DNA of 62,882 nt, the filler included, from Kipferlia bialata (Eukaryota): NCBI GenBank assembly GCA_003568945.1. It is 4 parts of 4 records of this genome, joined end to end, with 100 filler letters (N's around TTAATTAATTAA, not from the genome) between each part and the next. Parts side by side here need not be neighbours in the genome. Positions count along the whole stretch, not along the records: positions 44,620 to 59,770 come from BDIP01000362.1; 3 more parts are not named here. One strand, written 5' to 3'. Numbering within the stretch: the first letter of the stretch is position 1; each line of letters begins with the position of its first letter. The notes beneath the pieces are model-generated. The model saw only the letters and a list, made by a program, of their open reading frames with translations, did not search any database and had not been told where the DNA came from. Of this stretch, positions 54,494-56,152 are shown piece after piece. The translations under genes were made by a program, and so were the position numbers.

Positions 54494-56152
54494 CTACCCA
54501 CTGCCCTGCACCGTGGCTATGCATGATCTGACATGGGACCCGTCCCTGTGCTCAAGGAGATACACGCCCTGGGGGTGAGGGGGATTACATGATACTTAGC
54601 AATTTCCACGTGTGCATTGAACCGCGAACAAAAGCATTGCCCCAGTTGCCAAAACATGCCCTTAAGCCGGCCATTTGTCACATGCAGTATATATTCATAT
54701 ACATGTACGTAGAGTAGCACTACACCCACCTGCCACTGCCCCATGTTGAGTGTCCCATTGTTGTCATTATACATACTCATATATATATCTTTTATTTTTT
54801 TAATTATTTTTAATTATATATATCTATATATCTATATAACAGTATAACCACCTGCCACTGCCCCATGTTGAGCCTGCCATTGGTGACTGGGATGGTGACA
54901 GAGGTGCCTGTCAGCACACTCTTCATGTGGGCTGGCATGTCGTCATCGCCCTGGTATAAGGGTATTGGGGTATAATTAGATATGGTCGCACACTACATCC
55001 ACCAGGACAGGCATGTCATCATCGCCCTGTGGTTATGGTATACTATTGTGCACACATACACGAGTATATGGATCCAACTCTCGAGACAAGAGTATTATGT
55101 GGTTCTTGCTACAACTATTGTAGATTGTTTGCTATATGAGTTTTCGGTATCGTAACTGTTGAAGCGATATGATAGTAGTAACGATAACTTCTGGTCTGTA
55201 CCTCATAGCAATGCTCATACGTGGCCTTCTCAGGAACAAGCCTGGGGTTACACCAATGTATAGACACTATGTATATAATAGGGATTTACACATGATAGCA
55301 TCATATGGAATCAAAAGAGAGAAAAGAGAGAATACACAATGTGCGGCAACCCAGACATAGAGACTGGATATTGTGGAAGGGGGAAATGGGAGGGGTAGGG
55401 GGATGCTAGCAGTACATATCTATCTACGTCTAGAATAGTTCTGATAACCTGCCTTGACTGATAGGACACACACCTCAGTGATATAGAGTATATCATACGA
55501 ATGTACTTGTATCATGTCTAAACTGATTACAAGAGCAATAGATGCTGTGCATATATGAGTGCACCTGTCCAGTATAGTCCTGACGTCTGCCCTGACGGAT
55601 GGGTCCCAGCCCTCATTGACACTAAGGGAGGCAGAGGTGTGGAGGATGAACAGGTGGCACGTGCCACACCGCACCTGGAGGATTAGATATATATATTTAT
55701 ATATATAAATATAGAGAGAGAGAGAGAGAGAGGGTGTGGAGGATGATTAGGTGGCAGGTCCCACACCGCACCTGGAGGATCAGAAAGATACATATATATA
55801 GAGAGAGATGGGGGGGGGGAGAGATAGTCTGGAAGTGAATATGAACGAGAGAGATTGAGAGAAGCAAGTAGATATCATAATTTAGATGTGGAACCCTAGT
55901 CACTTTCGGGATAGTCAAAAGGTAGGGGGTGGGGTAGGAAAGAGAGAGGTCAATGAGGGATTGAGAGGAGGGTTAGAAGGTCAGGTGAATTGACACTAGT
56001 ATCACATGTGAGGGGGGTGGGGGGGGGGGGGTTACCTTGCCGAGTGCCTTCCCTATCCTGGCCTCCACCTCATCTGTCACAAGGTGCACACCCCTAGGGT
56101 GGGACGGAGGGCAATCTACTATACAGTAAATGTATACATGTGACTGGCTCAT
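54494..56152 (-). CDS. yjbQ: YjbQ / UPF0047 family protein, 5 exons
   Basis: [11 protein letters not shown]..|..[27 protein letters not shown]..|..[50 protein letters not shown] 54494-54496. Confidence 0.93.

What the first reader, a model, noticed from the sequence alone, without database searches (positions are those of the whole stretch)
54600..55800. Independent replicate of silent-biased exon echoes in the yjbQ gene
Seen on a different scaffold piece: copy starting 55771 vs exon 55674 has GGC>GGG, ACG>ACC, CTG>CTA silent and TTC>ATC replacement; 55428-55445 reads IRTILD vs VRTILD (AGG>AGA, ATA>ATT, CTG>CTA); copy near 55010-55027 has GAC>GAT, CCA>CCT; 54661-54681 reads VTNGRLK vs VTNGRLN with four silent changes; another LNMGQWQ|GT copy near 54730. 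Inference: YjbQ is usually low-copy, which weakens the collapsed-paralogue explanation.
Basis: partly seen in the sequence, partly recalled or inferred. Interest (0 to 1): 0.75.

Follow-up and report, generated by a model that had tools for sequence, protein, structure and literature searches.

The report
Exon stuttering in a protist gene
Four of the five introns of a small enzyme gene in a free-living protist hold short copies of the neighbouring exon's edge that the RNA skips; next to the splice site these copies differ from the exon only at silent positions, likely because they were copied from other working versions of the gene during DNA exchange.

Summary
The five echoes exist and beat shuffles. 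yjbQ is an intact six-exon gene, identical to a Kipferlia bialata protein, and an RNA contig skips every echo. Echoes cluster: 15 of 23 introns in three genes against 2 of 95 in nine others. A collapsed assembly is unlikely: an echo-bearing 4.5-kb DNA contig of the neighbouring MFS gene has full depth, but no contig bridged four of the five yjbQ echoes. The excess lies within about 15 nt of the junction (6:0 in yjbQ; fourfold 24/82 against zerofold 6/318 pooled; found post hoc; absent in the third gene). The layout matches 'exon stuttering' of chicken dot chromosomes and human junction-spanning minisatellites; I found no report for a protist or of the silent gradient. Best reading: junction-spanning tandem duplications, likely refreshed by unequal exchange with diverged working haplotypes. 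This scan noted similar exon-edge copies before in two other genomes.

The parts
56336..56385 (-). yjbQ coding exon 1 (ATG at 56385)
   Evidence: RNA joint 56092/56335; GT donor; protein identical to P0001
56036..56093 (-). yjbQ exon 2
   Evidence: DNA contig X1 record 8 differs from the window at 56045, a silent position by my reading of the frame
55733..55827 (-). Echo A: acceptor plus first 39 nt of exon 3 (55771-55733); 95-nt unit at 97-nt spacing, 80% alike; 3 silent, 1 replacement change
   Evidence: 84-nt DNA contig over 55744-55819 with 0 differences
55565..55674 (-). yjbQ exon 3 (used)
   Evidence: RNA piece 55564-55672, 0 other letters; Pfam UPF0047
55428..55481 (-). Echo B: last 53 nt of exon 3; junction-near part silent-only, far part decayed (6 silent, 8 replacement, 1 gap); donor shifted by a 2-nt loss
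55202..55241 (-). yjbQ exon 4 (used; no echo found)
   Evidence: RNA joints 55240/55564 and 54949/55201
54985..55026 (-). Echo C: acceptor plus start of exon 5; first 18 nt with 2 silent changes, remainder decayed
54852..54950 (-). yjbQ exon 5 (used)
   Evidence: RNA piece 54851-54949; Pfam UPF0047
54715..54763 (-). Echo D: last 34 nt of exon 5 (54763-54730) plus an intact GT donor and intron start
54662..54681 (-). Echo E: older copy of the end of exon 5 (4 silent changes in 20 nt; weak likeness continues to about 54646, donor lost)
54494..54568 (-). yjbQ exon 6 with stop
   Evidence: RNA piece 54267-54567
24479..29209 (-). MFS transporter gene with 17 junction-anchored echoes (second scaffold piece)
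59984..62420 (+). Unnamed membrane-protein gene (g4) with 13 echoes (fourth piece); no RNA or DNA reads laid here

Best explanation
The echoes are tandem copies of a splice junction (20-55 nt of exon edge plus the adjoining intron) that lie inside the intron and are skipped in the RNA, and their junction-near part was likely re-copied from a diverged but working version of the same gene by unequal recombination. Shown: the copies, their position on the side that leaves the exon whole, the RNA path, the clustering in three genes, and near-absence of replacement changes within about 15 nt of the junction. Inferred: (1) a first copy arises by break repair or unequal exchange at microhomology beside TA/GA runs; (2) only copies that leave a full exon survive; (3) the echo then mispairs with the true exon of another haplotype, and a crossover inside the shared 20-50 nt swaps in that haplotype's junction-near codons, splice site and intron flank while the far part stays old and decays; (4) the reverse exchange removes echoes and purges those with replacement changes. 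Not shown: the donor haplotypes themselves.
For: Layout: 19 of 46 exon edges have a copy in their own-side intron against 3 of 392 distal comparisons and 1 of 46 wrong-side (the same echo of a 43-nt exon counted twice). RNA contigs of X2 use only full exons in yjbQ and MFS. Use of three yjbQ echo sites would shift the frame. Real DNA: 0.99 of 670 sampled 31-mers of 50700-57200 are in run X1; no 31-mer repeats within 54401-56500; a 4506-nt contig at depth 449.6 spans 24300-26815 with five echoes and 0 differences. Two zones: within 15 nt fourfold 24/82, zerofold 6/318; beyond, 33/133 and 57/492, the ratio that decay predicts; simulated decay through the same pipeline reached the near-junction share in 0 of 300 runs, also with the exon's silent rate tripled; holds for cut-offs 9-24 nt on unique differences (p 0.0001-0.01) and with one echo per exon edge (24:6 vs 36:44, p 0.001). 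Echo flanks differ from the used flanks at 31-32% of 24 nt (background 41-45%) yet 26 of 32 keep GT/AG. Echoes differ from each other at silent sites (core 16:8). Nested pieces of exon end, whole small intron and next exon start occur (MFS 25168-25053; g4 61005-61133). A sediment RNA contig (X3) differs from the neighbouring gene at 5 silent and 1 replacement site in 158 nt. Metamonads lack NHEJ and are thought to rely on homologous repair (PMC8516963, passages).
Against: No donor haplotype was found: no paralogue, no Kipferlia-like locus in two metagenome scans (0 of 65 stretches; 51 loci all at most 53% identical), and the strain's own DNA contigs differ from the window at 1 base and 1 gap in 1391 nt and at 0 in 2516 nt. 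The fit needs templates about 0.4 apart at silent sites, whereas X3 is 0.15 apart, in a different gene. Silent changes are directional, G/C in the exon to A/T in the echo 40 times against 12 the other way (16:5 near the junction), where swapping between coding alleles should be symmetric. The third gene shows no gradient (1:4 vs 14:15). The gradient was found after looking, rests on 21 exon edges, weakens with hard trimming (p 0.014) and is not significant in MFS alone at cut-offs of 18 nt or more. Echo-echo differences on full alignments are 20:20. The five-copy MFS array contains an 8-N gap.
Confidence: 0.45

Rival explanations
1. Plain tandem duplication from the same chromosome followed by neutral decay. 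The exon can change only silently and the echo everywhere, which alone gives about twice as many differences per silent site; the rest is chance and choice of alignment ends.
For: yjbQ overall 18:18 and g4 15:19 do not reject it; beyond 15 nt the fourfold:zerofold ratio is about 2:1; the G/C to A/T direction fits decay; g4 has near-identical young copies and no gradient. It is the reading of two earlier notes of this scan on other DNA (unchecked).
Against: Pooled unique differences 71:59 exceed it (p 1e-4 to 9e-3); near-junction zerofold changes 6/318 against about 0.076 simulated; likelihood ratio p 8e-6 pooled and 0.01 for yjbQ; intron flanks differ 31% while splice dinucleotides mostly persist.
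Confidence: 0.22
2. Echoes are kept protein-compatible where they lie: single-strand annealing or conversion between exon edge and echo often makes the echo's junction-near part the working one, so replacement changes there are selected against while silent changes drift towards A/T.
For: Predicts the gradient, kept splice sites (26 of 32; 12 of 32 score as well as the used site) and the G/C to A/T direction; needs no second haplotype.
Against: By my estimate (inference, no call) a pop-out rate high enough for such selection would remove echoes before about 30% of their silent sites had changed; no joint skipping an echo was listed for DNA run X1 in either region (contigs drop rare forms).
Confidence: 0.18
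3. The pieces come from former full paralogues or whole duplicated exons that were once coding and have since been lost or trimmed.
For: Explains templates about 0.4 apart at silent sites and why single genes are affected; whole 54-nt exons are tandemly repeated elsewhere in the window (38157-38654).
Against: No paralogue among the protein hits; the MFS exon-7 copies show more variants than two templates would give; exon 3 of yjbQ (110 nt) could not be tolerated twice.
Confidence: 0.1
4. Assembly artefact: short-read assembly placed alleles or strain variants one after another.
For: Units are about read length and end in TA/GA runs; no DNA contig was shown across echoes B-E; the contig on echo A has depth 253 against 444 beside it; X1 may be the source sample, so it is a re-assembly, not a second sample.
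Against: 0.99 of sampled words present; no repeated 31-mer to loop on locally; echo-bearing MFS contigs at depth 369-450 with 0 differences, neighbours 317-496; echoes are truncated and decayed, not working alleles.
Confidence: 0.05

Closest known systems
Exon stuttering on chicken dot chromosomes (Hron et al., bioRxiv 10.1101/2025.09.16.676548 = PMC12954441; abstract, passages, section 6 part 1 and section 17 read)
   Same: Partial copies of the adjacent exon edge with its splice site in the neighbouring intron; exon part median 36 bp there, 34 nt here; coding exons intact; concentrated in a subset of genes; repeat-rich introns.
   Different: Here a metamonad protist, not birds or gerbils; 1-5 copies per edge (13 of 21 single) against 1-44 (median 4); spans of hundreds of bases, not kilobases; echo genes are not more GC-rich than controls (GC3 0.63-0.76 vs 0.59-0.81); gene-by-gene rather than shown chromosome-wide; that paper has no codon-level analysis ('synonymous' 0 times in both versions); length polymorphism untested here.
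Minisatellites whose first unit spans an exon-intron boundary: human F7 IVS7, CBS, LMNB2, PDGF, 6-16 (PMC1557585, passages read)
   Same: Reiterated donor sites that stay unused; the most upstream donor is the one used, as in yjbQ intron 5.
   Different: Those are regular arrays of near-identical units at one junction; here 10-28% diverged, irregular copies at most junctions of a gene, on acceptor sides too.
Intron gain by tandem duplication (PMC3265369, PMC2891723, PMC4974935; search listings only)
   Same: Intragenic tandem duplication that includes splice signals.
   Different: Here the duplicated junction belongs to an existing intron and the RNA shows no new intron or exon.
YjbQ / UPF0047 family (PF01894, TIGR00149)
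   Same: The host gene is an ordinary full-length member (134.5 bits, cut-off 67.75).
   Different: Five introns, four of them enlarged by exon-edge copies.

Membership tests
Exon stuttering (Hron et al.) | Copies lie in the intron adjacent to the source exon, above a shuffled control | tested here: met
   19 of 46 own-side against 3 of 392 distal; shuffles
Exon stuttering (Hron et al.) | Source within 1 base of the exon border in over 90% of cases | tested here: inconclusive
   26 of 35 within 1 nt, 32 of 35 within 3 nt, but anchoring within 12-16 nt was my filter (35 of 36 passed)
Exon stuttering (Hron et al.) | Exon part 20-187 bp (median 36), 1-44 copies | tested here: met
   11-57 nt, median 34; 1-5 copies per edge
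Exon stuttering (Hron et al.) | Coding exons remain intact | tested here: met
   RNA contigs and full-length protein
Exon stuttering (Hron et al.) | Introns rich in simple repeats | tested here: inconclusive
   Dinucleotide runs 8.9% of bases vs 4.0%; 11 of 23 vs 20 of 95 introns; far below the massive expansions described
Exon stuttering (Hron et al.) | Intron length polymorphism within the species | not testable with these tools
   Only one DNA run, as contigs; no related strain in two metagenome scans
Exon stuttering (Hron et al.) | Association with extremely GC-rich genes on special chromosomes (an association, not part of the definition) | tested here: not met
   GC3 of echo genes lies within the range of controls; chromosome context unknown (no genome held)
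Junction-spanning minisatellite (F7 type) | First unit spans the exon-intron boundary and reiterates the splice site | tested here: met
   26 of 32 echoes keep GT/AG
Junction-spanning minisatellite (F7 type) | Regular head-to-tail array of near-identical units | tested here: not met
   yjbQ edges have 1-2 diverged copies at irregular spacing; only g4 61696-62135 and MFS 26785-27442 approach an array
Mutually exclusive or alternative exons | Copy is a whole exon with both splice sites and appears in RNA | tested here: not met
   Copies are partial and are skipped by the RNA contigs; contigs would miss rare isoforms
YjbQ / UPF0047 | Family profile above its curated cut-off | tested here: met

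The most novel reading that the evidence does not exclude
The introns of some Kipferlia genes are an archive of other haplotypes: each echo's junction-near codons and intron flank were taken from a working allele about 0.4 apart at silent sites, so exon stuttering is driven by exchange between deeply diverged homologues and records past outcrossing or hybridisation in a group where sex has not been observed; the same codon test could then settle the mechanism of exon stuttering in birds.
Probability: 0.3. Interest if true: 0.75.

Novelty: new variant of a known kind. Interest (0 to 1): 0.5.

Why it matters
Exon stuttering was described in 2025-26 as new, for birds and gerbils, with the mechanism left open. 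Here it appears in a metamonad, in 17 of 118 modelled introns of one window, and carries a signal that the bird study did not examine: replacement changes are nearly absent next to the junction. [quoted passage not shown] It also gives natural pairs of equally strong used and unused splice sites in an organism with a reduced spliceosome (87 of 174 proteins; PMC6679479), and it misleads gene finders (mine inserted echo mini-exons).

Tried and rejected
No whole genome is held, so paralogues were counted only through protein searches, which the tool calls weak when blank. DNA contigs of X1 gave no cover at 54741-55657; a filter removes records, so this says nothing. The DNA 'joints' 55808-56010, 25881-26618 and 26646-27948 sit in low-complexity runs and were set aside. 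X3 has a small share (0.07) and covers only 161 nt of the neighbouring gene; it is not evidence of habitat and may be another species. Two metagenome scans found no Kipferlia-like locus. My first idea that 56871-56820 is yjbQ exon 1 was wrong: RNA assigns it to the upstream gene. A faster silent rate in the exon (x2, x3) can give the overall ratio but not the gradient. CpG sites change more often (fourfold 8/15 vs 49/200; zerofold 7/41 vs 56/769) but at both site classes, so they do not make the bias. In-frame mini-exon use of echoes, proposed by my gene finder, is not seen in the RNA contigs. One of 36 alignments was dropped as not junction-anchored; 4 of 13 gene models (gI, gI+, gL, gM) were left out of the control set as unreliable. 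Paper searches found no report of exon stuttering in a protist or of a silent bias in such copies; PMC3449122 and PMC8794474 (passages) added nothing decisive; PMC2891723 could not be read; supplements of the bird preprint were not seen and may hold sequence detail.

Full report
Setting. The window is four scaffold pieces joined by spacers; no whole genome is held. The finding lies in the third piece, on the minus strand. Six exons (56385-56336, 56093-56036, 55674-55565, 55241-55202, 54950-54852, 54568-54494), all with GT-AG introns, give a 143-residue protein identical to P0001, a UPF0047 protein of Kipferlia bialata, above the TIGR00149 cut-off. The published genome paper for that species (PMC5874029; parts 1-3 of 6 read) reports 124,912 introns, a short-read assembly and a diploid k-mer profile; those parts do not mention exon copies.

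Observation. Nucleotide-only local alignment of each exon against its flanking introns found five copies in introns 2-5 and none in intron 1 (p 0.002 four times, 0.014 once). Three copies run on further than quoted, with replacement changes and gaps.

RNA. One 664-nt contig of run X2 (depth 23) lies on exons 3, 5 and 6 with 0 other letters and shows joints of 242, 323 and 251 nt; consecutive record positions show that intron 5 is removed whole, and the 115 letters before 55672 leave no room for echo A, so intron 2 is too (the last step is my inference). In the MFS gene three contigs likewise use only full exons. Contigs would miss rare isoforms. Twelve of 32 echo splice sites score at least as well as the used site, and using three yjbQ echo sites would shift the frame.

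Is it real DNA? Run X1, which may be the source sample, holds 0.99 of 670 sampled 31-mers of 50700-57200, and no 31-mer repeats within 54401-56500. For yjbQ only echo A is covered by a listed contig (84 nt, depth 253 against 444 beside it); a filter leaves 54741-55657 uncovered. For the MFS gene a 4506-nt contig at depth 449.6 spans five echoes with no difference, and further echo-bearing contigs have depth 369-428 against 317-496 for neighbours. So collapse of alleles is unlikely, directly for MFS and by extension for yjbQ. Paralogues: one Kipferlia YjbQ among 120 listed of 283 hits; one candidate each for the MFS and g4 exons, the genes themselves. Blank results here are weak evidence.

Extent. 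The same scan gave 36 alignments in three genes, of which 35 are anchored at a junction: yjbQ 5, MFS 17, g4 13. Echoes occur in 15 of 23 introns of these genes and 2 of 95 introns of nine control models (heterogeneity over 12 genes, permutation p 0.0002). The control models come from my own gene finder; only three of their introns were RNA-confirmed and four of 13 models were left out. Echo genes have longer introns (medians 226-399 vs 70-110 nt) but ordinary GC3. Copies lie on the side that leaves the exon whole: 19 of 46 own-side, 3 of 392 distal. The strongly expressed neighbour of yjbQ has one short echo in 18 introns; contig depth is a poor measure of expression, so a link to expression is only a lead.

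Silent bias. A decaying intronic copy already differs twice as fast per silent site, because the exon too changes silently. Pooled unique differences (71 silent: 59 replacement) exceed that (p 1e-4 to 9e-3); yjbQ (18:18) and g4 do not; MFS drives it. Splitting by distance from the junction, which I did after seeing the alignments, shows where the excess lies: within 15 nt, fourfold sites 24/82 and zerofold 6/318; beyond, 33/133 and 57/492. For yjbQ it is 6:0 against 12:18, for MFS 25:4 against 23:30, for g4 1:4 against 14:15. Simulated decay with A/T-biased mutation through the same aligner never reached the near-junction share in 300 runs, pooled or in yjbQ. On unique differences the contrast holds for cut-offs of 9-24 nt pooled and with one echo per edge; hard trimming weakens it to p 0.014. 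A two-zone fit gives about 0.4 extra silent distance and 0.01-0.025 decay near the junction, and 0.06-0.2 and 0.06-0.16 beyond. The intron flanks differ at 31-32% of sites, against 41-45% for unrelated introns, while 26 of 32 echoes keep GT or AG. Echoes differ from one another at silent sites in the strict cores (16:8) but not on full alignments (20:20).

Mechanism. The near part of an echo thus looks like a piece of a working gene copy and the far part like old decayed sequence. Unequal exchange between an existing echo and the true exon of another haplotype would produce this: the crossover falls in the shared 20-50 nt and brings in the partner's junction-near codons, splice site and intron flank. 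Pieces made of exon end, whole small intron and next exon start, and a junction joined at a 5-nt microhomology in g4, fit that. Metamonads lack NHEJ and are thought to depend on homologous repair (PMC8516963, passages). Against it: no donor was found; this strain's contigs differ from the window at about 1 base in 4 kb; the one wild relative seen is 0.15 apart at silent sites in another gene; and silent changes run from G/C in the exon to A/T in the echo 40 to 12, which fits change within the echo better. I give this reading 0.45, plain decay 0.22, selection on echoes in place 0.18, lost paralogues 0.10 and artefact 0.05.

Known systems. The layout is exon stuttering as described for chicken dot chromosomes: copies of 20-187 bp (median 36), over 90% at the exon border, 1-44 copies, exons intact, mechanism open, also seen in gerbils (bioRxiv 10.1101/2025.09.16.676548; abstract, passages, section 6 part 1 and section 17 read). 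Neither version contains 'synonymous', and the journal version has no 'codon', 'silent' or 'protist'; supplements were not seen. Human junction-spanning minisatellites, with use of the most upstream donor, are the older precedent (PMC1557585, passages; the lead came from earlier finding e1-7810567). Earlier finding e1-7787687 reports clustered exon-edge copies in a sea urchin gene (unchecked). It works like exon stuttering and meets the layout features; length polymorphism could not be tested and the GC association is not met. Searches found no protist case and no silent gradient.

Verdict. A real feature of a known kind in a new branch of eukaryotes, with one apparently unreported property, the junction-near lack of replacement changes, that rests on two of three genes in one window and needs a genome-wide test. 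Interest 0.5.

Noticed in passing
window 29250-29330: Likely scaffold misjoin at a long C run: a 2967-nt RNA contig covers the exons at 29714-29594 and from 29389 but nothing of the MFS gene, the DNA contig stops at 29327, and the MFS RNA contig has 103 nt upstream of 29038 that were not shown laid. The 608-aa public model P0121 may be chimeric.
   Followed up: partly
window 38157-38654 (+): Three tandem copies of a 54-nt unit as whole phase-compatible exons coding a short repeat, differing largely at silent sites; ordinary exon duplication, no RNA checked.
   Followed up: partly
window 52428-52452 (+): In the neighbouring phospholipase-B-like gene (name from my recall) a 14-nt exact copy of an exon end sits before the acceptor and makes a second in-frame acceptor 21 nt upstream.
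   Followed up: partly
window 26785-27442 (-): All MFS exon-7 echoes that cover the place read GTT where the used exon reads ACT, which puts a GT after 15 nt in the echoes but not in the exon; two unlike intron ends alternate; an 8-N gap lies in the array.
   Followed up: partly
window 30307-30385: A 55-nt near-perfect palindrome (54 of 55) followed by a 25-nt one.
   Followed up: no
control genes of the window: CpG is depleted in exons (observed/expected 0.39) and introns (0.36), which may point to cytosine methylation.
   Followed up: no
window 48419-45063 (-): An intronless open frame of 1118 codons in an otherwise intron-rich genome.
   Followed up: no
window 18700-22200: Dispersed diverged repeats (19669-19788 vs 21973-22092, 85%; 20162-20347 vs 20767-20959, 65%), perhaps a decayed mobile element.
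   Followed up: no
window 44620-59770: This piece is 15,151 nt, while the protein record gives a contig of 20,691 nt; the second piece matches its record exactly (22,204). Unexplained.
   Followed up: no
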